64,000 bases of DNA, taken from assembly GCA_964653575.1 (NCBI GenBank), contig CAZZFP010000002.1, positions 63,303 through 127,302 of the forward strand, in the 5' to 3' direction. Below are positions 35,796 to 45,808 of this stretch, in pieces. The position numbers and the translations under genes are program-made. Numbering within the stretch: the first letter of the stretch is position 1; each line of letters starts with the position of its first letter. The notes below the pieces were generated by a model. That model was not told where the DNA came from. It saw only the letters and a program-made list of their open reading frames with translations, and searched no databases. Origin of the DNA: an uncultured Lachnospiraceae bacterium (GTDB lineage Bacteria; Bacillota; Clostridia; Oscillospirales; CAG-272).

Positions 35796-36124
35796 TTTGT
35801 TTACCTCTCTTCTGTTTACGTTTGCTTTGATTTTGAAGGTACCGGTTGTCGGTGATATTTCCGGTAGCTCATCCTGCGAACAGATCAAAAAAATCATTTG
35901 TAGGCTCCCGCGCGCTTTTTGCTTGCACACGGCTTCCTATGGGTTTAGTATACCAAAACGAAAATACAATGTCAAGTCATTTTTGCAAAAACAAATATTT
36001 TTACATTTTTTTGATATGTTGCAGAGCAGTTGATCCTTTGTTTCGATATGGGAAAATGATAGTAAATAATAATTACCGATCTATTGTCTACTTTGATATT
36101 ATTTGGAGTTCAAAAATTGTGCAA

Positions 36125-36171
36125 ATCACTAAATATGGAGTTTTGAAGAAAAAAACTCACAATATATAGTT
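36125..36171 (+). promoter_or_regulatory. Tandem NrdR boxes
   Basis: ATCACTAAATATGGAG (36125-36140) and CTCACAATATATAGTT (36156-36171), with centres 31 bp apart. The second box overlaps the -35 of the nrdD promoter. Confidence 0.55.
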
Positions 36172-36198
36172 GCAAAGCCGAAAAACTTGTGGTATAAT
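36170..36198 (+). promoter_or_regulatory. nrdD promoter
   Basis: TTGCAA-17 nt-TATAAT with an extended -10 TG. Confidence 0.55.
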
Positions 36199-36294
36199 AT
36201 GTTTCACAGTTTATCTGGATATCGACATAATCTGACGTGATATCCTTACTATAAATATATTGTTACAAAAATCATTGACGAAAGGAAAACGCTT

Positions 36295-38700
36295 ATGTAT
36301 CGTGTTATCAAAAGAGACGGAAATGTTGTGGAATTCGATTTAGTAAAGATCAAGGTCGCCATTACGCAGGCATTCGACGCGGTCGAAAAGAACTATACCC
36401 CGGAGGTTATAGATCTACTTGCACTCAGAGTTACGGCGGATTTTCAATCTAAAATAAAGGACGGACTTATTTCCGTTGAAGATATACAGGACAGTGTTGA
36501 GGTCGTGCTTATTCAGGCGGGATATGCCGACGTGGCAAAGGCATATATCCTCTATCGCAGGCAGCGCGAGCGTGTCCGTGAAATGAAGTCTACCATTCTC
36601 GATTACAGCGAAGTGGTCAACAGCTACGTAAAGGTCACGGATTGGCGTGTAAAAGAGAACAGCACAGTTACATATTCTGTCGGAGGTCTTATCCTTTCAA
36701 ACTCTGGTGCGATCACGGCTAACTATTGGCTCTCCGAGATCTACGACGATGAGATCGAGAAGGCACACAGAAATGCCGATATACACATACACGACCTTTC
36801 TATGCTTACGGGCTATTGTGCGGGTTGGTCGTTGCGTCAGCTTATCGTTGAAGGACTTGGCGGTATCCCGGGCAAGATATCTTCATCGCCCGCATCGCAC
36901 CTTTCAACGCTCTGCAACCAGATGGTGAACTTCCTCGGCATTATGCAGAATGAGTGGGCGGGTGCACAGGCGTTCTCTTCGTTTGATACTTATCTTGCGC
37001 CCTTTGTAAAGGCGGACAACCTCTCATATAAAGAGGTAAAGCAGTGTATTCAATCCTTTATATACGGCGTAAATACACCGAGCAGATGGGGAACACAGGC
37101 TCCGTTTACCAATATAACTCTTGATTGGACGGTTCCCGCGGACCTTGCAAACCTTCCCGCAATCGTCGGCGGCAAGCCCCAGGACTTCACCTACGGTGAT
37201 TGCGTTGAAGAGATGGCTATGGTAAACAAGGCATTTATTGAGATAATGATCGAGGGCGATGCTAACGGCAGAGGCTTCCAATATCCGATACCCACATATT
37301 CCATCACGAGAGATTTTGATTGGTCCGAGACTGAGAACAACAAGCTTCTCTTTGAAATGACCGCAAAATACGGTACGCCTTATTTTTCCAACTACATAAA
37401 CAGTGATATGGAGCCGAGCGACGTCCGCAGTATGTGTTGCAGACTGCGTCTTGACCTTCGTGAGCTTCGAAAGAAATCCGGCGGTTTCTTCGGAAGTGGC
37501 GAGAGCACGGGCTCGATCGGTGTCGTGACTCTCAATATGCCTCGTATCGCATACCTTTCCGAGAATGAAGAGGATTTCTATCACCGCCTTACACATCTTA
37601 TGGATATTTCCGCTCGTTCACTTAAGATCAAGCGTGATATCGTTACAAAGCTTCTCAACGAAGGACTTTATCCTTACACAAAGCGTTATCTCGGTACTTT
37701 TGAAAATCATTTCTCTACGATAGGTCTTGTCGGTATGAACGAGGCTTGCCTTAACGCAAAATGGATAAAGAAAGATCTTACAGACGAAAAGGCTCAAAAA
37801 TTTACAAAAGATGTTCTTAACTATATGAGAGAACGTCTTAAGGTATATCAGCAGGAATACGAGGCGCTCTTCAACCTCGAGGCAACTCCGGCAGAATCCA
37901 CGACTTACCGTTTTGCAAAGCACGATAAGAAAAGATATCCCGACATAATCACGGCAAGCGAAGGTAAGAACGGCGCACCTTATTATACCAACAGCTCGCA
38001 CCTTCCCGTTGACTTTACGGATGATATATTTGCGGCACTTGACATTCAGGACGAGCTTCAAACTCTCTATACATCGGGAACCGTATTCCACGCATTCCTC
38101 GGACAGAAGCTCCCGGATTGGAGATCGGCGGCAAATCTTGTTCGCAAAATAGCCGAAAATTACAAGCTGCCTTATTATACGCTTTCTCCTACTTATACTG
38201 TCTGCGGATACCACGGATACATAGCGGGCGAACACTTTACCTGTCCCAAGTGCGGCAAACCCGCAGAGGTATACAGCCGTATCACGGGCTATTATCGCCC
38301 GGTTCAGAATTGGAACGACGGCAAGCGTGAAGAATTTAACGAGAGACGCGTTTATAACGTTACGGATAATGTCAATACTCCGTGTGAAGACTCTGCAAAG
38401 AAAGAGACTTGCACCTGTTGTAAAGAAGAAAAGACGATCGCGAGCGCAACGTTAGGCTCTTCTGCCCGCCTTGTGCTTGTTACGGCAACCAAGTGCCCCA
38501 ACTGCGCTATGGCAAAGAGGTTTCTTGATTCAAAGGGACTTGCTTATGACGTTGTCAACGGAAGCGAGGACGCGGAATTTGCAGACAAATTTGAGATAAA
38601 ACAAGCGCCGACGCTTCTCGTGTTTGACGAAAACGGAGCGCTTTCGGGTAAATATGTAAATCTTTCCAACGTGAGAAAATTTATTGAGGAGCAAGCGTGA
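36295..38700 (+). CDS. nrdD: Anaerobic ribonucleoside-triphosphate reductase with ATP-cone and fused C-terminal thioredoxin-fold (CPNC) domain
   Basis: ATP-cone N-terminus; GYCAGWSL; SMCCRLRLD finger loop; Zn ribbon CGYHGY..CPKCG; glycyl radical motif SRITGYY. About 110 extra C-terminal residues follow, with a CxxC Trx-like fold from aa 725. Confidence 0.95.
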   Translation: MYRVIKRDGNVVEFDLVKIKVAITQAFDAVEKNYTPEVIDLLALRVTADFQSKIKDGLISVEDIQDSVEVVLIQAGYADVAKAYILYRRQRERVREMKSTILDYSEVVNSYVKVTDWRVKENSTVTYSVGGLILSNSGAITANYWLSEIYDDEIEKAHRNADIHIHDLSMLTGYCAGWSLRQLIVEGLGGIPGKISSSPASHLSTLCNQMVNFLGIMQNEWAGAQAFSSFDTYLAPFVKADNLSYKEVKQCIQSFIYGVNTPSRWGTQAPFTNITLDWTVPADLANLPAIVGGKPQDFTYGDCVEEMAMVNKAFIEIMIEGDANGRGFQYPIPTYSITRDFDWSETENNKLLFEMTAKYGTPYFSNYINSDMEPSDVRSMCCRLRLDLRELRKKSGGFFGSGESTGSIGVVTLNMPRIAYLSENEEDFYHRLTHLMDISARSLKIKRDIVTKLLNEGLYPYTKRYLGTFENHFSTIGLVGMNEACLNAKWIKKDLTDEKAQKFTKDVLNYMRERLKVYQQEYEALFNLEATPAESTTYRFAKHDKKRYPDIITASEGKNGAPYYTNSSHLPVDFTDDIFAALDIQDELQTLYTSGTVFHAFLGQKLPDWRSAANLVRKIAENYKLPYYTLSPTYTVCGYHGYIAGEHFTCPKCGKPAEVYSRITGYYRPVQNWNDGKREEFNERRVYNVTDNVNTPCEDSAKKETCTCCKEEKTIASATLGSSARLVLVTATKCPNCAMAKRFLDSKGLAYDVVNGSEDAEFADKFEIKQAPTLLVFDENGALSGKYVNLSNVRKFIEEQA

Positions 38701-39620
38701 TGTCAGAGCACATCTATGATATAGCGGTTATCGGCGCGGGCCCTGCGGGGCTTGCCGCCGCAATATATGCACTGCGCGCAGGTCACGACGTTGTCGTTAT
38801 AGAAGGGGCAAGCATAGGCGGTCAGATATCATCTGCCGCCGAGGTTGAAAACTATCCCGGATTTAAAAGTATTTCGGGCATGGATCTTGCACTTTCATTT
38901 TACGAGCAGGCAGAGGCGTTAGGAGCGGCGTTTGAGTTTGAGGCTGTTACCGAGGCAAAGCTTGATGGTGACATCAAGGTGCTTTTGACCACGGGCGGGG
39001 AGATCAAAGCCAAGAGTGTTATAGTTGCCACGGGCGCGCGTTGCCGCAGGCTCGGAGTGGAACGCGAAGAAGAGCTTACGGGCTCGGGAGTGTCGTATTG
39101 TGCTGTGTGTGACGGAGCATTTTTCAGAGGCCGCGCGGTCGCCGTTTCGGGTGGCGGCAATTCGGCGTTTGATGATGCACTGTATCTTGCCGAATATTGC
39201 AGCAAGGTGTACCTTATTCACAGAAGAGATTCATTCAGATGCGAAAATGCCAAGCTTGAGCTTGCCAAGAAAAAAGGAAACATTGAGTTTGTGACCAATA
39301 GCCGTGTAAGTGAGCTGCTGGGAGATACTTCGCTGAGCGGGGTCGTTGTAGAGTCTACCGTTGAAGATTATGAGAAGCGCACTTTGGATGTAAGCGGACT
39401 TTTTGTCGCGGTGGGACGTGAGCCTCAAAATGAGTTTCTCGGTGGCGTTGAGCTTGATGGCGGCTATGTTGCCGCGTCGGAAGATTGCAGAACTAATATC
39501 AAGGGCGTGTTTGCGGCAGGCGACTGTCGTACCAAAAATGTAAGACAGCTTACAACGGCGTGTGCCGACGGATCGGTCGCGGCTCTCGCGGCAAGCGAAT
39601 ACGTAAAGCGAATGAATTGA
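38697..39620 (+). CDS. trxB: Thioredoxin-disulfide reductase
   Basis: GAGPAG FAD motif, redox CAVCDG, GGGNSA NADPH motif. ATGA overlap with nrdD. Confidence 0.9.
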   Translation: MMSEHIYDIAVIGAGPAGLAAAIYALRAGHDVVVIEGASIGGQISSAAEVENYPGFKSISGMDLALSFYEQAEALGAAFEFEAVTEAKLDGDIKVLLTTGGEIKAKSVIVATGARCRRLGVEREEELTGSGVSYCAVCDGAFFRGRAVAVSGGGNSAFDDALYLAEYCSKVYLIHRRDSFRCENAKLELAKKKGNIEFVTNSRVSELLGDTSLSGVVVESTVEDYEKRTLDVSGLFVAVGREPQNEFLGGVELDGGYVAASEDCRTNIKGVFAAGDCRTKNVRQLTTACADGSVAALAASEYVKRMN

Positions 39621-39640
39621 TAAAAGCAGAATTAAAAAAT

Positions 39641-39671
39641 AAAAAGACGTTGCCGTGTGCAGCGTCTTTTT
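39641..39671. terminator. Bidirectional terminator between trxB and nrdG
   Basis: AAAAAGACGTTGC-CGTGT-GCAGCGTCTTTTT. Confidence 0.7.
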
Positions 39672-39690
39672 AATGTGGGTTTTACAAATT

Positions 39691-40404
39691 TTATTCCGAA
39701 TATCCTCGCATTTTGACGACGGGGATAAGCTCGTTCAGTATTCGTGCAAAGCTTTCCGCTTGATCTTTTTCGATCGGAGCGAGCGGGGCAGAGGATATAC
39801 AGTTCCGCTTATCCTCAAACTTCTGAAGAAAATATCTCGGTGCGCCCTCGAGCCATTTGCCGATTATCAGCATATCGTCCTCCGTGTGATGCCCTTTGAC
39901 CAACGTGGTCCTGAATTCGATATCAACGGCACGGCTTTTGTAAGCGTCTATGAGAAATCTTGCACTTTCAATGATGTTGTCAATATGCGCATCGCGCACG
40001 CCGGTGGTGAAAGGATACATATCCGGAGAATTTTTGATATCCATAGCGACGTAATCCAAAAGTCCGCTGTTTATAAGAGCTTTGAGCATTTGAGAATTTG
40101 TACCGTTTGTGTCCAATTTGATCTTGTAGCCAAGGGATTTGACGAACTTTATAAAATCGGGAAGCTCGGGGTACAGTGTGGGTTCGCCGCCCGTTATGCA
40201 GACCGCATCAAGTATGCCTGTGCGCCGCCGCAGATAATCTTCAATATATGCGTTATCTATGGTCGGCTCCGAATTTGGATCCAGGACAAGCGCGGCGTTC
40301 TGGCAGAATGGGCAACGGTAGTTGCACCCCCCCGTAAACAGGGTGCAGGCGGTGTATCCGTCGTAATCGACCAGCGAAAATTTTTCAATTCCGTGAAATT
40401 TCAT
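39691..40404 (-). CDS. nrdG: Anaerobic ribonucleoside-triphosphate reductase activating protein (radical SAM)
   Basis: GGCNYRCPFCQN cluster motif. The ATG at 40404 is preferred (the ORF opens with GTG at 40434 and overlaps the upstream gene). Confidence 0.9.
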   Translation of the reverse strand: MKFHGIEKFSLVDYDGYTACTLFTGGCNYRCPFCQNAALVLDPNSEPTIDNAYIEDYLRRRTGILDAVCITGGEPTLYPELPDFIKFVKSLGYKIKLDTNGTNSQMLKALINSGLLDYVAMDIKNSPDMYPFTTGVRDAHIDNIIESARFLIDAYKSRAVDIEFRTTLVKGHHTEDDMLIIGKWLEGAPRYFLQKFEDKRNCISSAPLAPIEKDQAESFARILNELIPVVKMRGYSE

Positions 40405-40417
40405 TGTCCGAGCCGCC

Positions 40418-42100
40418 TCATCCGTTGAATTCACCCTTTAAGATGATGTTTCTGTTGAATACGAATACATAACATCCGCCCGATGTAAACTGCTCCACGA
40501 GACTTCCGTCCGATGTGATCTCATCCCAGTGATCCGTTTCCTGTGCGGTTTCGTATTCCGACGAGGAGAGAATAACAAAGTATTTGTCAATGCCCGGCTG
40601 ATCCTCGTACCAGAGCCTTGAAGACTGATAGTAGTCTGTGATGATACCGTTGCTGTTGACGAGCGTTTCGCGACATTTTACCTTGGAGTCCGAGATGACC
40701 GTGATCGCCTGAGAACGCCAGAAGGTCGCATATCCGTATTCAAGCCCTCTTTCTTCAAGGTCCGAGGCAAGGATATGCAGGTAATTGTCCTGACCGTAAT
40801 CCTTCGGCATTTTGCGTATTTCAGCCGCATTTACCGTGCATACGAGCACAAGGATCGCGGAAAGTACTGTCGCAAGTCTGAATTCCACGGGACGCTCCTT
40901 AAGATCTCCGAAAAACTCTCTCAGTATCGCAACAGTAGACATAATGGCTGTGCCAACCATAGGCGTGAGCCTCCAATTGGCATTGGAAAGCCTTCCGCAG
41001 ACGAAGCCTACCATAATTACGGCACTTACCGCTACGTGTGTCCAGAGCAGTATTTTAGTGCTGTGTTCCTTGATCGATTTGTAGGTGCAAAGTCTTACTA
41101 CGGGTAGCACCAATATGAGTACGCCGCCTACCATACGAATGAGGTAGGGAATAGACTCTTTGCCGAACAGCTCGGAGCCCTTCGAGGCGTTGACACCGAT
41201 GAGTGTAAGATAGTCCTCAAAAAAGTTTGTGAAATTGCCATACCAATCGGAAACGCTTGAAAAGGTAGAATATATCGAGGTATAGTTTGCGATCTTGTCG
41301 CCCTTCAATATCTTAAGCAGGACAACTCCGAGCGCGGTTGCGACGACTATGAGTACAAGATTTACGGCGGCGGGCAAATTTTTCTTTGAAAACAGTTTTG
41401 TCTTGCCGTCAAAAAATCTTTCCGCGAATATTGCCGCAAGCACGGGAAGCGTGGAGATAGCGATCACCTGAAAGCCGTTTGTTGCGTTGCCTGCGAACAG
41501 TATTGCTATCAGCGCGGCAAATATTACGGACCTTGACATACTTATCTTTTCGGCTTCAAGATTTTTTGAGAGTCTTTGACAAAGTCCGAGCGCGACACAT
41601 ATTACTATCAACGCCAGACTGTAATAAATTACGTGTCCCCACATTATCTCACGCAGTTTGTCACTGCCCGAAAGTCCGAGCAAAAGCGCCGAGATCATAC
41701 CGCAGCTTGCGGCTATGCTCCAACCAAAGCTTCGGCACATAAAATATATAGCCGCCGTGAAAAGTACGAGAAATATCGCCATTCCCGCAAGCTGAACATT
41801 CATCGTCATACCGAATATCGATATGAGAGGCACATACCAAAGCGATGATGAGAATGGGAGCATGGCGGCATATCTGAAGTTCTCGTCAAATACCTTCCCA
41901 CTTTCCACGGTCGCGTTAGCCCATAGAAGCGAGTCTGTGCAATCCGAATGAAAATATCCCTGCGAGGGGTAAAGAATATAGTAAAGACAAATTCCGAACG
42001 AGACGATCGCGGCGATCACGGCAACAAATGTAAGCGCATATTTTTTTACCGTACCGACTACATCAAACCAAGGTCGGCGGCTGTTTTCTGAATTTTCCAT
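40418..42100 (-). CDS. Large polytopic membrane protein with C-terminal extracytoplasmic domain (GT-C-like glycosyltransferase candidate)
   Basis: About 11-13 TM helices. An acidic first-loop motif (YFHSDCTDSLLW) and a ~130-aa soluble C-terminus. Fold assignment is inferred. Confidence 0.65.
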   Translation of the reverse strand: MENSENSRRPWFDVVGTVKKYALTFVAVIAAIVSFGICLYYILYPSQGYFHSDCTDSLLWANATVESGKVFDENFRYAAMLPFSSSLWYVPLISIFGMTMNVQLAGMAIFLVLFTAAIYFMCRSFGWSIAASCGMISALLLGLSGSDKLREIMWGHVIYYSLALIVICVALGLCQRLSKNLEAEKISMSRSVIFAALIAILFAGNATNGFQVIAISTLPVLAAIFAERFFDGKTKLFSKKNLPAAVNLVLIVVATALGVVLLKILKGDKIANYTSIYSTFSSVSDWYGNFTNFFEDYLTLIGVNASKGSELFGKESIPYLIRMVGGVLILVLPVVRLCTYKSIKEHSTKILLWTHVAVSAVIMVGFVCGRLSNANWRLTPMVGTAIMSTVAILREFFGDLKERPVEFRLATVLSAILVLVCTVNAAEIRKMPKDYGQDNYLHILASDLEERGLEYGYATFWRSQAITVISDSKVKCRETLVNSNGIITDYYQSSRLWYEDQPGIDKYFVILSSSEYETAQETDHWDEITSDGSLVEQFTSGGCYVFVFNRNIILKGEFNG

Positions 42101-42162: not shown

Positions 42163-44250
42163 TCAATGGCCGAAAAACTCAGCGAGCCACACGAACACAC
42201 GTGCGTCGTAACCGGCAAGATTGCCGTTTATCGAAACGAGGACCGAGAAGCAAACAAAGATCGATACGAGCATAAGCATCTTTTCCGTGATGCGGCAAGC
42301 CTTTGCCGTTCCGTTTGCCTCTGTCATATTTTCGTTGAATGAGAACATCAGCAGTATCGACACAACGGCGGCAAGCAGAGTCATATCCGATGTATATCTG
42401 AATATAACACCGCCAAGGCAGAAGTTGACAAATGATATTACAAAGAATCCCGAAATGAGCGACAATACCAAGCTTTTGACAAATGTCGTCTTCTTTTTAT
42501 CGAGTGCAAAAGGAAGCGCAAGAATCAGACCGAGCATAACCGGAATCGAGAATAATCCCATACCCGTGTCAACGTAGACATATGTGCCGTAGTTGTAAAG
42601 GTTTGAATAAAACAGTGTAAAATTGGGGAAGTTGCCCGAGATACCGAGCGGCTGAATAAAGTAATGATACAGGGCACCGGAAATTCCGCTGAAACGGAGT
42701 TTGTTTTTTGAAATATCGCTTACGGTAAGCTGGTATTTGGTTCCGAATTCAAACGGACTGCCAAAACGGGCGTTGTTGTACCAAAATGTAAAGACGAGCG
42801 CGACTGCAACGAAAGCACCGAGTGCGCAGATATCGACGAGTTTTCCTCGTGTGCTTCTTTCAATGCTCTTGCCGTTTCCGATCTCTGGCTCGGGACGTGA
42901 AAGGATCACTCCGAAGATAAGTATCGGTACGACCGCAAACGCTGTCAGCAACGCCATATTGAGCCTTGATAGGAACAGCATAGCATAGGAGAGTCCGGCA
43001 AGCGCAAAGAATAGGGGACGACGGATCCTATGCCGTGAATTGACGGCGAGCAGTATGAAGAACATAAATTCCGCAAGGTATGCCATCCCGGCGATAGAAG
43101 CGATGTAGTAGAAATGTTGAACTCCGCGCGCCATCAAAAGTATGTTCGAAGAGAAAAGAAGAGCAACTATTCCGAGGCAAAGGAGGGAAACGGGAACCTT
43201 CTTTTTGTATATCGTGACATAAGCTATGACGAAGAGAGCGGAGAAGAGTACCGCCGAGAGTGCGTAGAAGGATATTACCGTATTTTCGGACGGAAGCGAG
43301 CCGCTGAGCAAATAATGCGGTAAATATACATTCAATATCGGAGCTATACCAAAATAAGAGTAGTATTTGCCGTCGTACATAGCTCGATCCCAAAGATAAT
43401 AGATCCCATCTCGGGCACTGTAATCATAAGGATTTTCGAGCTCAAGTAACGAGTCGGAAACGGGATAGTCGATATTTAACTGTCCTTTAAGGAAAGCGTC
43501 GGTCTGCTGAACATACGGGTTGTAAGTGTTGACTCCGTTTTGAAGCGGATATTCTACACTTCCGTGTCCACCGACAAATATTGCACAAAAGAGCGCGGTA
43601 AATATGATGCAAAGCGAGACCGTGCCGATAACGGCAACGTTGTGCGAGAATTTTTTCGGATCGTACGGCTCCGAATTCAGCTTGAAGGATATCGATCCCC
43701 ATATGATAAGACCTATGGCAAGCAGGATCATCATTCTCGCAAAATTGAACGTTATCAGCTTGCGACTCGGATTTATTGTTATTTCGGAAACCGTTACATC
43801 ATCGGTCACATCCGAAAAAGAAAATTGAAGATAAGTGTCGGACGCAGGCGCAAGATCAAGATAAACGGTTTTTTGAGAGCTTTTGCCGTTACCGGGGGCG
43901 ATATAAGTCGTTGCAATGGTGGAAAGCGTGCCTCCGCGCTTTTCGTCATAGGCTTTTATCAGTACCTTGACCGGTTTGCTGAGGATGATGCCTTCCTCGA
44001 CCGATGAGCAGATCCTTATCGCATATATATCGCTTGGAAGGTCTTTGATCTTGTGCTGGCTGTCTTTTCCCGATGTCAAGGCTATCACCGTGTCATCGAG
44101 GCAATCGAAGTCGGTCACGTATTCATCCGTATCTATAAACAAATTGCGGTAATTTGAAATAGCAAATTCCAACATTACCGCAACGCATATAAGTATCACG
44201 GATATCAGTGCCCGACGCACAAAAGGCTTGCGGGACGGATTTCCTGACAT
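42163..44250 (-). CDS. Large polytopic membrane protein (GT-C-like glycosyltransferase candidate) with N-terminal extracytoplasmic domain
   Basis: Motif LWDRAMYDGKYYSYFGIAPIL and more than 12 TM helices. The ATG at 44250 has RBS GGAGG and abuts the stop of the upstream gene (the ORF opens at 44331). Confidence 0.65.
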   Translation of the reverse strand: MSGNPSRKPFVRRALISVILICVAVMLEFAISNYRNLFIDTDEYVTDFDCLDDTVIALTSGKDSQHKIKDLPSDIYAIRICSSVEEGIILSKPVKVLIKAYDEKRGGTLSTIATTYIAPGNGKSSQKTVYLDLAPASDTYLQFSFSDVTDDVTVSEITINPSRKLITFNFARMMILLAIGLIIWGSISFKLNSEPYDPKKFSHNVAVIGTVSLCIIFTALFCAIFVGGHGSVEYPLQNGVNTYNPYVQQTDAFLKGQLNIDYPVSDSLLELENPYDYSARDGIYYLWDRAMYDGKYYSYFGIAPILNVYLPHYLLSGSLPSENTVISFYALSAVLFSALFVIAYVTIYKKKVPVSLLCLGIVALLFSSNILLMARGVQHFYYIASIAGMAYLAEFMFFILLAVNSRHRIRRPLFFALAGLSYAMLFLSRLNMALLTAFAVVPILIFGVILSRPEPEIGNGKSIERSTRGKLVDICALGAFVAVALVFTFWYNNARFGSPFEFGTKYQLTVSDISKNKLRFSGISGALYHYFIQPLGISGNFPNFTLFYSNLYNYGTYVYVDTGMGLFSIPVMLGLILALPFALDKKKTTFVKSLVLSLISGFFVISFVNFCLGGVIFRYTSDMTLLAAVVSILLMFSFNENMTEANGTAKACRITEKMLMLVSIFVCFSVLVSINGNLAGYDARVFVWLAEFFGH

Positions 44251-44251
44251 A

Positions 44252-45808
44252 TTATTGTTTTGCCTCCTCGTGATACTCTTTCTCTGTATTAACGTTCCAT
44301 ACCGTGGTTTTGTCTGTGCTTCCGCTTGCAACGGCGCGTACAGCTTCTATTGCCGTGAGCATGGAGTGATCCATATTGTTGTATCTATGCTGTCCGTTTC
44401 TTCCTATGCACCAGAGGTTTTCTATGCCGTCGAGATAGTTTCTTACGGTGTCAAATTCCTTGTACGTGTCAAAGTACGCGGGATACGCTTTTTTGACCTT
44501 GATGCGCGTGCCGTCAAGTACGTCCTCGGCGTCGATAACGTCGATCTTTATGAGCTCCTCGGTAGCGAATTTTATAAACTCCTCGTCGCCCATACTCCAG
44601 AGCTCATCGCCTTCGTTGCAGAAATATTCGAGACCTATCCACATAGTGTTCTCGGGATCGTTTACCATATAGGGAGACCAATTGTTAAAGAGCTGAAGAC
44701 GTCCGAGACGCACTTCACGTTCTTGGACGTAGATCCAACAATCGGGTACGTTGCCCGTGAGAGTCTTTGTCTTGGTCTTATTCTCCAATTTGAGCTTCTT
44801 TACAAGCAGACCGACGGTGATATAGTCACGGTACGGAAGTCCTTCGGCGACTCTCTTAACATCGGCGGGCGGTACGTCGCCCATTCCTGAGACCAGGTCT
44901 TTGATCGGCATGGTAGAGAAGAATACATCGGCTTCAAGCTCTCTGCCGTCCTCGGTTATCACCTTTTTGACTTGCTTGCCGTCGGCAGACAGTACGATAT
45001 CTTTGGCTTTGGTATTCATCAGTATCTCGCCGCCCATAGCACGTACGTCATCAGCCAAGAATTCCCAGAGCTGTCCCGGACCCTTTTTCGGATAATAGAA
45101 CTGCTCGATAAGGGATGTCTCTACCTTGTCCTTTGAGCGGAACGGCTTGGAGATAACGTTCCATACCGCTTTGCTGAGAGAAAGTCCCTTTACTCTCTGT
45201 GCGCCCCAATCCGCGGATATCTGAGAGGGATGTCTGCCCCATAGATTTTCCGTGTAGTATTCAAAAAACATTTCATAAAGAGGTCTGCCGAAACGGTTGA
45301 TGTAAAAGTTCTCGAGCGAGTCCTCTTTTTTCTTAACGATACAACTGCCGATATAGCCGAATCCTGACTTTACGGTTCTCGCAAATCCCATATTAATAAA
45401 GGTCTCGGGCTTTAATGATATCGGATAATCGAAAAACTTGTGTAGGAAGAATATCCTTGAAAGACGGTTGCGCACGAGCATAACTCTGTCCTCGGTCTCG
45501 GGATCGGGACCGCCCGCGGCAAATTCTTTTTCCGTTCCGAGTATCTTGTCATCATATGCGGGCTTGCCCTGAAGCGGCATAAGCTCCTGCCAGAGCTGAT
45601 TGACCTCTGAATTTTTTGAGAAAAAACGGTGTCCGCCAAGGTCCATACGGTTCCCCTTGTATCTTGCCGTCCTCGATATACCGCCTATAAATTCACTCTC
45701 CTCAAGAATTATGGGCTTTATATCGGTCTCTTTAAGAAGCTTGTAAGCTGCGGTAAGTCCCGCAGGACCTGCTCCGATAATGATAGCCGTTCTTTGTTTG
45801 TTTTCCAT
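44252..45808 (-). CDS. NAD(P)/FAD-dependent oxidoreductase, UDP-galactopyranose mutase-like
   Basis: The [13 protein letters not shown] dinucleotide fold and [17 protein letters not shown] resemble the Glf/UGM substrate loop. The ATG at 45808 has RBS AAGGAGAG. Confidence 0.75.

What the first reader, a model, noticed from the sequence alone, without database searches (positions are those of the whole stretch)
36295..39620. Class III ribonucleotide reductase fused to a thioredoxin-fold domain and translationally coupled to thioredoxin reductase
**Seen in sequence.** NrdD normally ends shortly after the glycyl-radical motif (here SRITGYY...EEFNERRVYN, ~aa 690). This ORF continues for ~110 aa. 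There is a Cys-rich linker (CEDSAKKETCTCC), then from aa 725 (nt 38467) a ~77-aa thioredoxin/glutaredoxin-like fold with a CPNC active site. The trxB start overlaps the nrdD stop (ATGA).

**Established knowledge.** Some class III RNRs use thioredoxin or NrdH-like redoxins instead of formate as reductant, for example the Thermotoga and Neisseria bacilliformis enzymes and the methanogen enzymes. Those use separate redoxin proteins.

**Inference.** A covalent NrdD-redoxin fusion with its own reductase would form a self-contained NADPH-to-nucleotide electron relay.
Basis: partly seen in the sequence, partly recalled or inferred. Interest (0 to 1): 0.6.

Follow-up and report, generated by a model that had tools for sequence, protein, structure and literature searches.

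The report
Anaerobic ribonucleotide reductase with redoxin tail
This oxygen-sensitive enzyme that makes DNA building blocks carries its own small thioredoxin-like domain at the end of the chain and is followed by the gene for thioredoxin reductase, an arrangement found in about a fifth of sampled Clostridia but never studied, which suggests the enzyme draws its electrons from NADPH rather than from formate.

Summary
ORF 36295-38700 (801 aa) contains an ATP-cone, a full class III RNR (NrdD, 1134 bits to NF006126, ending at aa 689), a disordered linker of about 35 aa, and a 77-aa thioredoxin-fold domain with an invariant CPNC.

- **Operon.** trxB overlaps the nrdD stop codon. nrdG lies convergent, beyond a shared terminator.
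- **Active site.** It has the redoxin-type signature: Cys175, a Met380-Cys381-Cys382 finger loop, and Glu529 at the position of T. maritima Glu495. It also keeps the Met used in formate chemistry.
- **Distribution.** The fusion is not a one-off. It occurs in 189 of 401 genomes of the same order and 76 of 401 sampled Clostridia, 360 of which have NrdD. At least 562 species genomes carry it, including Lentisphaeria, Bacilli and Spirochaetes MAGs.
- **Synteny.** trxB lies directly downstream in 64 of the best 80 loci.
- **Reductase.** The linked TrxB is the genome's only canonical one, so it is probably shared with free thioredoxin rather than dedicated.

Most likely mechanism, inferred and not shown: NADPH → TrxB → tail CPNC → active-site disulfide.

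The literature I could search holds only a one-line table entry for a Grx:NrdD fusion in one organism. I rate this a new variant of a known kind, of moderate interest.

The parts
36127..36198 (+). Promoter region. Two NrdR-box-like palindromic elements, CACTAAATATGGA (36127-36139) and CACAATATATAGT (36158-36170), lie 31 bp apart. They overlap a -35 TTGCAA (from 36170) and precede an extended -10 TGGTATAAT (ending at 36198).
   Evidence: The promoter scan scores 10 of 12 with a TG extension. These blocks are the conserved islands when the upstream region is aligned with two congeners, one of which is otherwise diverged. An NrdR gene is present in the genome (TIGR00244, 170 bits). The box consensus is recalled from memory, so the assignment is tentative.
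36295..38700 (+). nrdD::redoxin fusion gene, 801 aa plus stop.
36301..36570 (+). ATP-cone (aa 3-92), the allosteric activity domain.
   Evidence: PF03477, E 1.5e-22.
36655..38355 (+). Class III RNR catalytic barrel plus glycyl-radical domain (aa 121-687). Key residues: Cys175 (36817-36819); finger loop Met380-Cys381-Cys382 (37432-37440); Glu529 (37879-37881); Zn-ribbon C637/H640/C650/C653 (38203-38253); radical Gly665 (38287-38289).
   Evidence: PF13597 over its full length. Alignment to T. maritima 4coi and P. copri 8p23. All these residues are invariant in 52 full-length fusions. Coordinates.
38362..38466 (+). Disordered acidic linker (aa 690-724) with a Cys cluster, CTCC at 38410-38421.
   Evidence: pLDDT below 50. 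Across 80 loci the length is 18-72 aa, median 30. A CC, CxC or CxxC pair is present in 36 of 80 and absent in 40 of 80. One relative has a linker of only about 12 aa.
38467..38697 (+). Thioredoxin-fold redoxin domain (aa 725-801). Active site C734-P-N-C737 (38494-38505); cis-Pro P772 (38608-38610).
   Evidence: PF00462 at 30.9 bits against 22.9. AF2 fold. Foldseek and profile matches to thioredoxins, Mj0307 and NrdH. CPNC and P772 are invariant.
38700..39620 (+). trxB, an NADPH-type low-Mr thioredoxin reductase (306 aa from the ATG at 38700; alternative GTG at 38697). Motifs: FAD GAGPAG (38733-38750), redox CAVC (39099-39110), GGGNSA (39150-39167), HRRDSFR (39219-39239). SD GAGGAG at 38686-38691, inside nrdD.
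   Evidence: TIGR01292 at 344.5 against 343.45. Nearest solved structure is 4zn0 (267.6 bits). The ferredoxin-dependent FFTR 6gna scores only 134 bits. Motif positions.
39640..39672 (.). Bidirectional intrinsic terminator between the convergent trxB and nrdG. It has a 14-bp stem, a 5-nt loop, and an A-tract and T-tract on either side.
   Evidence: strand folding gives -18.9 kcal/mol, z -3.4 against shuffles. Sequence.
39691..40434 (-). nrdG, the radical-SAM activase of NrdD. The true start is probably the ATG at 40404. The + strand ORF 39655-40428 is its shadow.
   Evidence: TIGR02495 at 187.8 bits against 131.15. The + strand ORF has no family hit.

Best explanation
This is a glycyl-radical (class III) ribonucleotide reductase of the double-cysteine, glutamate-bearing ('NrdD2-like, Met retained') type. 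It has acquired a small CPNC thioredoxin-fold domain on a flexible linker at its C-terminus.

The proposed cycle is as follows.
1. Each turnover oxidises Cys175 and Cys381 to a disulfide. Cys382 is the thiyl radical and Glu529 is the base.
2. The tethered redoxin reduces that disulfide by thiol-disulfide exchange.
3. The redoxin is itself re-reduced by the NADPH-dependent TrxB, which is translated from the overlapping downstream gene.

The two-gene operon would then carry electrons from NADPH to the nucleotide without formate and without a free thioredoxin. NrdG installs the radical and the ATP-cone and NrdR regulate. The genes are nrdD::redoxin-trxB, under an NrdR-type promoter, with nrdG convergent.

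Shown here: the domain architecture, the fold, the active-site residues, and the conservation of the fusion and of the trxB linkage.

Inferred: both electron-transfer steps and formate independence.
For: **Architecture and fold.**

[quoted passage not shown] The Glu column is T. maritima residue 495 (Burnim 2022).
- Y174-C175 aligns to Tm Y124-C125.
- SMCCRL aligns to Tm SCCRL.
- NLE529ATPAE aligns to Tm NIE495QVPAE.
- NrdD1 of P. copri has MGC and Leu at these positions.

**Purifying selection.** C175, M380, C381, C382, E529, G665, both CPNC cysteines and the cis-Pro are invariant in 52 full-length fusions of 70-97% identity.

**Distribution.**
- The fused frame is found in 189 of 401 genomes of the order.
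- The tail is found in 76 of 401 sampled genomes of the class, of which 360 have NrdD.
- At least 562 loci occur among species genomes. The best 80 are all NrdD C-termini, and come from Clostridia, Lentisphaeria/Victivallales, Bacilli and Spirochaetaceae MAGs and Clostridium transplantifaecale.

**trxB linkage.** trxB lies on the same strand directly downstream (gap -7 to +146 nt) in 64 of 80 loci and in all 12 relatives' loci. A free-standing copy of the same redoxin also sits directly before a trxB (L112).

**TrxB type.** It carries the HRRDSFR and GGGNSA NADPH motifs and is closest to NADPH-type reductases, not to FFTR.

**No alternative route found in this MAG (76% complete).**
- No other glutaredoxin-family gene.
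- No PFL-like gene.
- No class I or II RNR.
- Two of five near-complete relatives with the fusion also lack any PFL-like gene.

**Precedents.**
- Thioredoxin-dependent N. bacilliformis NrdD.
- An NrdH-like reductant for NrdD3.
- A fused Grx shown to be a working RNR reductant in Facklamia ignava NrdB.
Against: - Met380 is retained. [quoted passage not shown]
- Three of five near-complete relatives that carry the fusion do have PFL-like genes.
- The linked TrxB is the only canonical TrxB here and in most relatives checked, and free thioredoxins exist elsewhere. Its position may partly reflect housekeeping use.
- 12 of 80 loci have no trxB within the fetched flank and 4 have it 1.3-2.8 kb away.
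- All fusions form one tight NrdD clade, so the co-occurrence of the tail with the NrdD2-type signature counts as about one evolutionary event, not many.
- No MCCR+Glu enzyme has been assayed, to my knowledge.
Confidence: 0.62

Rival explanations
1. The tail has a maintenance or activation role. Formate, acting through the Cys175/Met380 thiosulfuranyl route, remains the turnover reductant. The tethered redoxin and TrxB only keep cysteines reduced so that NrdG can install the glycyl radical. The cysteines concerned would be the Zn-ribbon C637/C650/C653 next to the glycyl-radical loop, or the finger-loop pair. This would matter especially after oxygen exposure.
For: [quoted passage not shown]
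- The tail is attached 25-50 residues after the Zn-ribbon and the glycyl loop. The linker can be as short as about 12 aa, which places the domain next to the glycyl-radical domain.
- Met380 is invariant.
- PFL-like genes are present in 3 of 5 near-complete relatives.
Against: - The extra Cys381 and Glu529, which define redoxin-dependent turnover chemistry, are invariant.
- No PFL-like gene was found in this MAG or in 2 of 5 near-complete relatives.
- A translationally coupled NADPH reductase conserved in 80% of loci fits a stoichiometric electron supply better than an occasional repair. This last point is inference.
Confidence: 0.2
2. The enzyme accepts both reductants. It uses formate when the cell makes it and the NADPH/TrxB/tail relay when it does not. 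The Met-Cys-Cys loop supports both chemistries.
For: - Met, the second Cys and Glu are all invariant.
- Burnim 2022 notes that 83% of double-Cys class III enzymes keep the Met.
- Fusion-bearing genomes occur both with and without PFL-like genes.
Against: - No enzyme has been shown to use both reductants.
- Conservation of Met may have a structural reason.
- This overlaps with the best explanation and differs only on formate.
Confidence: 0.3
3. The tail is a tethered general-purpose thioredoxin, or a neutral relic of a gene fusion, with no role in ribonucleotide reduction.
For: - TrxB is the only canonical reductase in the genome, so the operon could simply be the cell's thioredoxin system.
Against: - CPNC and the cis-Pro are invariant across at least 80 loci from several phyla, while the linker drifts freely.
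- Free thioredoxins exist elsewhere in the same genomes.
- In the best 80 loci the domain is always on NrdD.
Confidence: 0.05

Closest known systems
Neisseria bacilliformis / Thermotoga maritima class III RNR (NrdD2; Wei et al. 2014, Aurelius et al. 2015)
   Same: Glycyl-radical NrdD with a beta-A Cys, an extra Cys next to the thiyl Cys, and an active-site Glu. The N. bacilliformis enzyme uses thioredoxin with TrxB and NADPH as reductant.
   Different: Those enzymes have an SCCR loop without the Met, no C-terminal extension, and use a separate thioredoxin. This one has MCCR and carries the redoxin covalently, with trxB in the operon. It is 801 aa against 651 for T. maritima. The match to the T. 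maritima chain scores only 142.8 bits (E 1.1e-40) over aa 152-687.
Methanosarcina NrdD3 with an NrdH-like redoxin
   Same: A class III RNR served by a small glutaredoxin-like protein (Table 1 of PMC9176816).
   Different: NrdD3 has QCCR/A without Met or Glu. Its redoxin is a separate protein. From memory, it is reduced by a ferredoxin:disulfide reductase rather than by TrxB.
Facklamia ignava Grx::ATP-cone::NrdB and other Grx fusions to RNR components (Rozman Grinberg et al. 2018)
   Same: A redoxin domain fused to an RNR subunit, shown biochemically to act as the RNR reductant. The same paper's Table S1 lists one 'Glutaredoxin:NrdD' protein (Lachnospiraceae bacterium TWA4, subclass NrdDd), so a Grx-NrdD fusion has been seen before.
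   Different: The F. ignava fusion is an N-terminal, glutathione-type Grx on the class I radical subunit. The NrdD case was only listed: one organism, composition written alphabetically so domain order is unknown, no ATP-cone noted, and no analysis of active site, trxB linkage or distribution.
C-terminal cysteine-pair shuttles of class I and II RNRs (including the class II Zn-finger tail, Loderer et al. 2017)
   Same: A flexible C-terminal appendage carries a redox dithiol that relays electrons from a redoxin system to the active-site disulfide. About 45% of family members also carry a CC, CxC or CxxC pair in the linker.
   Different: In class I and II the tail is a short peptide or Zn finger that is reduced by a free Trx or Grx. 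Here the appendage is itself a whole redoxin domain. Lundin 2015 states that no such external cysteines exist in class III.
Small redoxin plus TrxB-like reductase pairs of Clostridia (YruB-family / Cp9-Cp34 of C. pasteurianum; NrdH-TrxB)
   Same: A glutaredoxin-sized CxxC protein reduced directly by a low-Mr TrxB-type flavoprotein. A free-standing redoxin-trxB pair with the same CPNC domain exists (L112). There are weak NCBIfam matches to the YruB and NrdH families.
   Different: Scores are far below those families' cut-offs (20-28 bits against 85-90). The CVQC and WSGFRP motifs of NrdH are absent. Knowledge of the Cp9/Cp34 system is from memory.

Membership tests
Class III ribonucleotide reductase (NrdD) | Full-length match to the NrdD family models | tested here: met
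   PF13597 positions 1-562 of 562, E 6e-191. NF006126 at 1133.8 bits against 548. TIGR02487 at 527 against 326.
Class III ribonucleotide reductase (NrdD) | C-terminal glycyl-radical motif (RxTGY) preceded by a Zn-ribbon Cys cluster, and a finger-loop thiyl Cys | tested here: met
   SRITG665YY; C637/H640/C650/C653; C382 in SMCCRL. All are invariant in 52 homologues.
Class III ribonucleotide reductase (NrdD) | Cognate radical-SAM activase NrdG | tested here: met
   TIGR02495 at 187.8 bits against 131.15, at 39691-40434 (-), 70 nt beyond trxB.
NrdD2 subtype (redoxin-dependent; Wei 2014 criteria as restated in Aurelius 2015) | A third active-site Cys adjacent to the thiyl Cys | tested here: met
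   C381-C382 aligned to T. maritima C329-C330.
NrdD2 subtype (redoxin-dependent; Wei 2014 criteria as restated in Aurelius 2015) | Active-site Glu at the position of T. maritima Glu495 | tested here: met
   E529 in NLEATPAE aligned to NIE495QVPAE. Invariant.
NrdD2 subtype (redoxin-dependent; Wei 2014 criteria as restated in Aurelius 2015) | Activity with a thioredoxin system and not with formate | not testable with these tools
   Needs an anaerobic enzyme assay.
NrdD1 subtype (formate-dependent) | Single-Cys MGCR finger loop and no active-site Glu | tested here: not met
   The loop is MCCR and Glu529 is present. P. copri NrdD1 shows MGC and Leu at these columns. The Met of the MGCR motif is kept, however.
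NrdD3 subtype | QCCR/A loop without Met and without Glu | tested here: not met
   Met380 and Glu529 are present.
Glutaredoxin (PF00462) / GSH-dependent Grx | Pfam gathering score; CPYC-type site; glutathione-binding motifs | tested here: inconclusive
   PF00462 scores 30.9 bits against 22.9 but covers only model positions 2-42 of 60. The site is CPNC. All NCBIfam Grx models fall far below their cut-offs. The glutathione-binding motifs, and glutathione synthesis in the genome, were not examined.
NrdH-redoxin | TIGR02194 / NF007657 cut-off | tested here: not met
   23.6-26.6 bits against 85.75, and 19.1 against 131.
Thioredoxin (PF00085 / TIGR01068) | Family score; five-stranded fold with N-terminal beta-alpha | tested here: not met
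   No PF00085 hit for this protein at E 0.01. TIGR01068 scores 16 bits against 96.8. The model has four strands and three helices. Even so, thioredoxins are the nearest solved structures by fold and by profile. It works like a short thioredoxin without being a family member.
Low-Mr NADPH thioredoxin reductase (TrxB) | TIGR01292 cut-off; CxxC redox disulfide; FAD and NADPH motifs | tested here: met
   344.5 bits against 343.45, a narrow pass. CAVC, GAGPAG, GGGNSA and HRRDSFR are present. Closest solved structure is 4zn0, thioredoxin reductase.

The most novel reading that the evidence does not exclude
Class III RNRs have convergently evolved the 'external dithiol' solution of classes I and II. 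A tethered redoxin relays NADPH-derived electrons into the active site. In about 45% of members it is preceded by a Cys pair in the linker that may act as a swinging shuttle. If so, the MCCR+Glu enzymes are thiol-dependent or dual-reductant in vivo rather than formate enzymes. These are the majority of double-cysteine class III RNRs and none has been assayed. Deoxynucleotide synthesis in a fifth of sampled Clostridia would then be wired to NADPH through a two-gene module that can be reconstituted from NrdD, NrdG and TrxB alone.
Probability: 0.35. Interest if true: 0.7.

Novelty: new variant of a known kind. Interest (0 to 1): 0.5.

Why it matters
**An open question in the field.** Which reductant class III RNRs use is unsettled for most of the family. 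Only formate-type (MGCR) enzymes and two SCCR enzymes have been assayed. Burnim et al. 2022 note that most double-Cys enzymes keep both sets of residues.

**What this locus adds.** A covalently attached redoxin with a translationally coupled NADPH reductase is a natural pointer to the physiological electron donor of one large MCCR clade. It also offers a minimal system for reconstitution: NrdD-tail, NrdG, TrxB and NADPH. Tail deletion and Cys variants are obvious controls.

**It qualifies a statement in a review.** Lundin 2015 says class III RNRs lack external C-terminal redox cysteines.

**Scale.** The module is frequent in gut and rumen anaerobes: 76 of 360 NrdD-bearing sampled Clostridia species, and it also occurs in Lentisphaeria, Bacilli and Spirochaetes MAGs. 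It therefore bears on how these organisms couple DNA precursor supply to NADPH and to redox or oxygen stress.

**Limits.** All the parts are known kinds, and a Grx-NrdD fusion has been listed once. The surprise is moderate.

Tried and rejected
- **Complex prediction**, NrdD aa 100-690 against tail aa 722-801, each with a 52-row alignment. The result was no answer (score 0.00). It is reported here only, and counts neither for nor against docking.
- **Docking geometry.** The tools return no coordinates or contacts. I could not measure where the C-terminus lies relative to the active site or the Zn-ribbon.
- **Wei et al. 2014 (PMC4246965)** is not held. Its criteria were taken second-hand from Aurelius 2015, Burnim 2022 and Lundin 2015.
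- **The search of earlier findings by sequence** returned nothing.
- **Rfam** on 35800-40600 returned no RNA family, so no riboswitch was found upstream.
- **Is the linker Cys cluster a conserved shuttle?** Rejected as a universal feature. It is absent from 40 of 80 loci.
- **Do many free-standing copies of the redoxin exist?** Most of the short hits among the top 150 of the representative search are gene-call fragments of fusions on tiny contigs. Only L112 looked like a true stand-alone gene.
- **Is the + strand ORF 39655-40428 a gene?** Rejected. It has no family hit, and it is the shadow of nrdG on the opposite strand.
- **Assembly or frameshift artefact as the source of the fusion.** Rejected by its recurrence in hundreds of genomes.
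- **My NrdR-box pattern search** of the whole window was only weakly enriched (44 matches against 25 expected). The box assignment rests on the phylogenetic footprint instead.

Full report
**What is in the sequence.**

ORF 36295..38700 on the + strand encodes 801 aa.
- Pfam finds an ATP-cone at aa 3-92. It finds the whole NRDD model at aa 121-687 (E 6e-191). It finds a Glutaredoxin-family match at aa 727-767, at 30.9 bits against a gathering score of 22.9.
- The NCBIfam equivalog for ribonucleoside triphosphate reductase (NF006126) covers aa 2-689 at 1134 bits.
- The enzyme is therefore complete by residue 689, and about 112 further residues follow.

The next gene encodes a low-Mr thioredoxin reductase. 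It passes TIGR01292 narrowly, at 344.5 against 343.45.
- It carries GAGPAG, a CAVC redox site, and the NADPH motifs GGGNSA and HRRDSFR.
- Its closest solved relative is 4zn0, a thioredoxin reductase, at 267.6 bits. The ferredoxin-dependent clostridial FFTR scores 134 bits.

The junction reads GAGGAGCAAGCGTGATG.
- The nrdD stop is at 38698-38700.
- The trxB ATG is at 38700, with a possible GTG at 38697.
- A GAGGAG ribosome-binding site lies inside nrdD.
- The two genes are translationally coupled. The overlap is TGATG or GTGA, not ATGA.

A 14-bp hairpin flanked by an A-tract and a T-tract lies at 39640-39672, with z -3.4. It separates trxB from the convergent activase gene nrdG at 39691-40434 (-), which scores 187.8 bits against 131.15 for TIGR02495. 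The + strand ORF over nrdG is a shadow.

**The tail.**

AlphaFold2 was run on the last 156 residues with a 12-row alignment.
- The segment at about aa 685-721 is disordered (pLDDT below 50).
- Residues 725-800 form a confident beta-alpha-beta-alpha-beta-beta-alpha domain (pLDDT 81-88).

Comparison with solved structures gives these results.
- Foldseek against the PDB returns thioredoxins first (1v98, E 3e-6, TM 0.76 normalised by target).
- A profile of 12 tails matches thioredoxins (3die, 5e-9), the 85-aa archaeal redoxin 1fo5, protein disulfide oxidoreductase units, and NrdH (1r7h, 3e-6).

It is not a member of any curated redoxin family. NrdH, YruB, Grx3 and thioredoxin models all fall far below their cut-offs. 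It is best described as a short thioredoxin-fold redoxin with a CPNC site. C734, P735, N736, C737 and the cis-Pro P772 are invariant.

**The active site.**

The criteria come from three papers.
- Aurelius et al. 2015: NrdD2 means a third Cys plus a Glu, and some NrdD2 keep a Met.
- Burnim et al. 2022: the motifs are MGCR against MCCR, and the Glu column is T. maritima residue 495.
- Lundin et al. 2015.

In the HMMER alignment to T. maritima NrdD:
- Y174-C175 aligns to Y124-C125.
- S-M380-C381-C382-R-L aligns to S-C329-C330-R-L.
- N-L-E529 aligns to N-I-E495.

The formate-type P. copri enzyme shows M-G-C and Leu at the same columns.

The protein therefore has everything assigned to disulfide and redoxin chemistry. 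It also has the Met assigned to the formate route. This is the commonest double-Cys form and it has not been assayed. All these residues are invariant in 52 full-length fusions.

**Distribution.**

A word-indexed search with the tail gave 18 proteins of about 800 aa, all with ATP-cone, NRDD and Grx domains.

Whole-genome searches show much more.
- The fused frame was found in 26 of 41 relatives.
- It was found in 189 of 401 genomes of the same order. The listed matches almost all span the glycyl-radical end, the linker and the tail inside frames of about 800 aa.
- In an even sample of the class, 360 of 401 genomes have NrdD and 76 of the same 401 have the tail. Nearly all of those lie in frames of 780-870 aa.

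The best 80 of those loci are all NrdD C-termini with an RSMCCRL loop.
- They come from Clostridia (records labelled Oscillospiraceae, Acutalibacteraceae, Christensenellaceae, Lachnospiraceae, Blautia), from Victivallales/Lentisphaeria, Bacilli and Spirochaetaceae MAGs, and from the cultured Clostridium transplantifaecale.
- Their cores are 68-97% identical to this one. That points to one clade spread by transfer among gut and rumen anaerobes.

The nearest record (97% identity) is an 'uncultured Lachnospiraceae bacterium' MAG. The window's own genome is a MAG of 1.59 Mb in 109 contigs, 76% complete.

**Linkage to trxB.**

- trxB lies directly downstream on the same strand (gap -7 to +146 nt) in 64 of the 80 loci. 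It lies 1.3-2.8 kb away in 4, and was not found in the fetched flank in 12.
- All 12 loci from relatives show it too.
- nrdG is usually upstream in the same direction. Here and in the closest relatives it is convergent.
- A true free-standing copy of the CPNC redoxin also sits immediately before a trxB (L112). The redoxin-trxB pair looks like a pre-existing module whose first gene fused to nrdD. This is inference.

**Is the reductase 'its own'?**

- In this MAG the linked gene is the only TIGR01292-level TrxB.
- In four of five near-complete relatives with the fusion it is the best TrxB, and in three of those the only one found at E 1e-30 or better. In the fifth the TrxB lies elsewhere.
- Free thioredoxins are encoded elsewhere in all of them.
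- The reductase is therefore probably shared with general thiol metabolism.

**Formate.**

- No PFL-like gene, no other glutaredoxin-family gene and no class I or II RNR were found in this incomplete MAG.
- Among the five near-complete relatives, two lack and three have PFL-like genes.
- Absence of formate supply is therefore not a general property of fusion carriers.

**Linker.**

- Length is 18-72 aa (median 30) across the 80 loci. One relative has only about 12 residues.
- 36 of 80 linkers carry a CC, CxC or CxxC pair, often between acidic residues. 40 of 80 carry no Cys.
Its role is unexplained. It could be an optional shuttle dithiol like the class I and II tails.

**Mechanism.**

Best-supported reading (about 0.6): NADPH reduces TrxB. 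TrxB reduces the tethered CPNC domain. That domain reduces the Cys175-Cys381 disulfide left by each turnover, with Cys382 as the thiyl radical and Glu529 as the base. The architecture, residues and synteny are shown. The two transfers are inferred. The inference rests on the N. bacilliformis precedent, on NrdH-type redoxins being TrxB substrates, and on the F. ignava fused Grx, which was shown to be a working RNR reductant.

Main rival (about 0.2): formate remains the reductant, and the tail keeps the Zn-ribbon or finger-loop cysteines reduced for activation by NrdG. This echoes the activating role of thioredoxin in E. coli NrdD (Padovani 2001).

A dual-reductant enzyme is a third possibility. 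I could not obtain docking evidence (see the tried-and-rejected section).

**Comparison with what is known, and novelty.**

- Redoxin-dependent class III RNRs have been known since 2014.
- Grx fusions to RNR subunits have been known since 2018. That paper's Table S1 lists one 'Glutaredoxin:NrdD' protein from Lachnospiraceae bacterium TWA4 without further comment.
- I found no paper in the searchable library that describes a C-terminal redoxin domain on NrdD, its trxB linkage, its active-site type or its distribution.
- Lundin 2015 states that class III enzymes lack external redox cysteines.
- Public annotation calls these proteins simply 'ribonucleoside triphosphate reductase'.

I rate it a new variant of a known kind. 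It is common in nature, unstudied, and easy to test.

**Regulation (side observation).**

- Two NrdR-box-like palindromes lie 31 bp apart and overlap the -35 element of a good extended -10 promoter.
- They are the conserved islands in an alignment with two congeners.
- The genome encodes NrdR.
- Together with the ATP-cone, this places the operon under the usual nucleotide-sensing control.

Noticed in passing
window 36127-36198: Two NrdR-box-like palindromes (CACTAAATATGGA and CACAATATATAGT) lie 31 bp apart and overlap the -35 of a TGnTATAAT promoter upstream of nrdD. They stay conserved in a congener whose upstream region has otherwise diverged. NrdR is encoded on contig C6 of the same genome.
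   Followed up: partly
window 38362-38466 and loci L031-L110: The linker between NrdD and the redoxin carries a vicinal or near-vicinal Cys pair (CC, CxC or CxxC, often between Glu/Asp) in 36 of 80 loci. It carries no Cys at all in 40 of 80. This is a recurrent but dispensable feature with no explanation yet.
   Followed up: partly
window 40418-42100 (-) and 42163-44331 (-): Two long ORFs (560 and 722 aa) next to nrdG have no Pfam or NCBIfam match at E 0.01.
   Followed up: no
P0120 (1314 aa, from the representative search): An NrdD-redoxin fusion with two large insertions in the catalytic core. One follows 'PSRWG' and one follows 'NLESAPAEST'. They look like inteins. The protein keeps MCCR, the Glu, a CEAC linker pair and CPNC.
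   Followed up: no
P0021, P0042, P0038, P0056 (representative search): Odd relatives of the tail. One is a fragment with two tandem copies of the redoxin separated by repeated 'DACDGTRILGTAKAEP' linkers. Others are short proteins that join the N-terminal part of a TrxB directly to the CPNC domain. They may be deletions, chimeric assemblies or real TrxB-redoxin fusions.
   Followed up: no
L112 (501-bp metagenome contig): A free-standing 74-aa CPNC redoxin, with stops upstream in all frames, is followed 8 nt later by a trxB start in a low-GC organism. The redoxin-trxB pair also exists unfused.
   Followed up: partly
G723 (complete 4.0-Mb genome of the same class), C1:515967-516185 and C1:532056-532274: Two copies of the tail domain lie 16 kb apart in one genome. 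One is in a 794-aa frame and one is in a 409-aa frame.
   Followed up: no
window 39655-40428 (+): A 257-aa ORF with no family match is the antisense shadow of nrdG and should not be annotated as a gene.
   Followed up: yes
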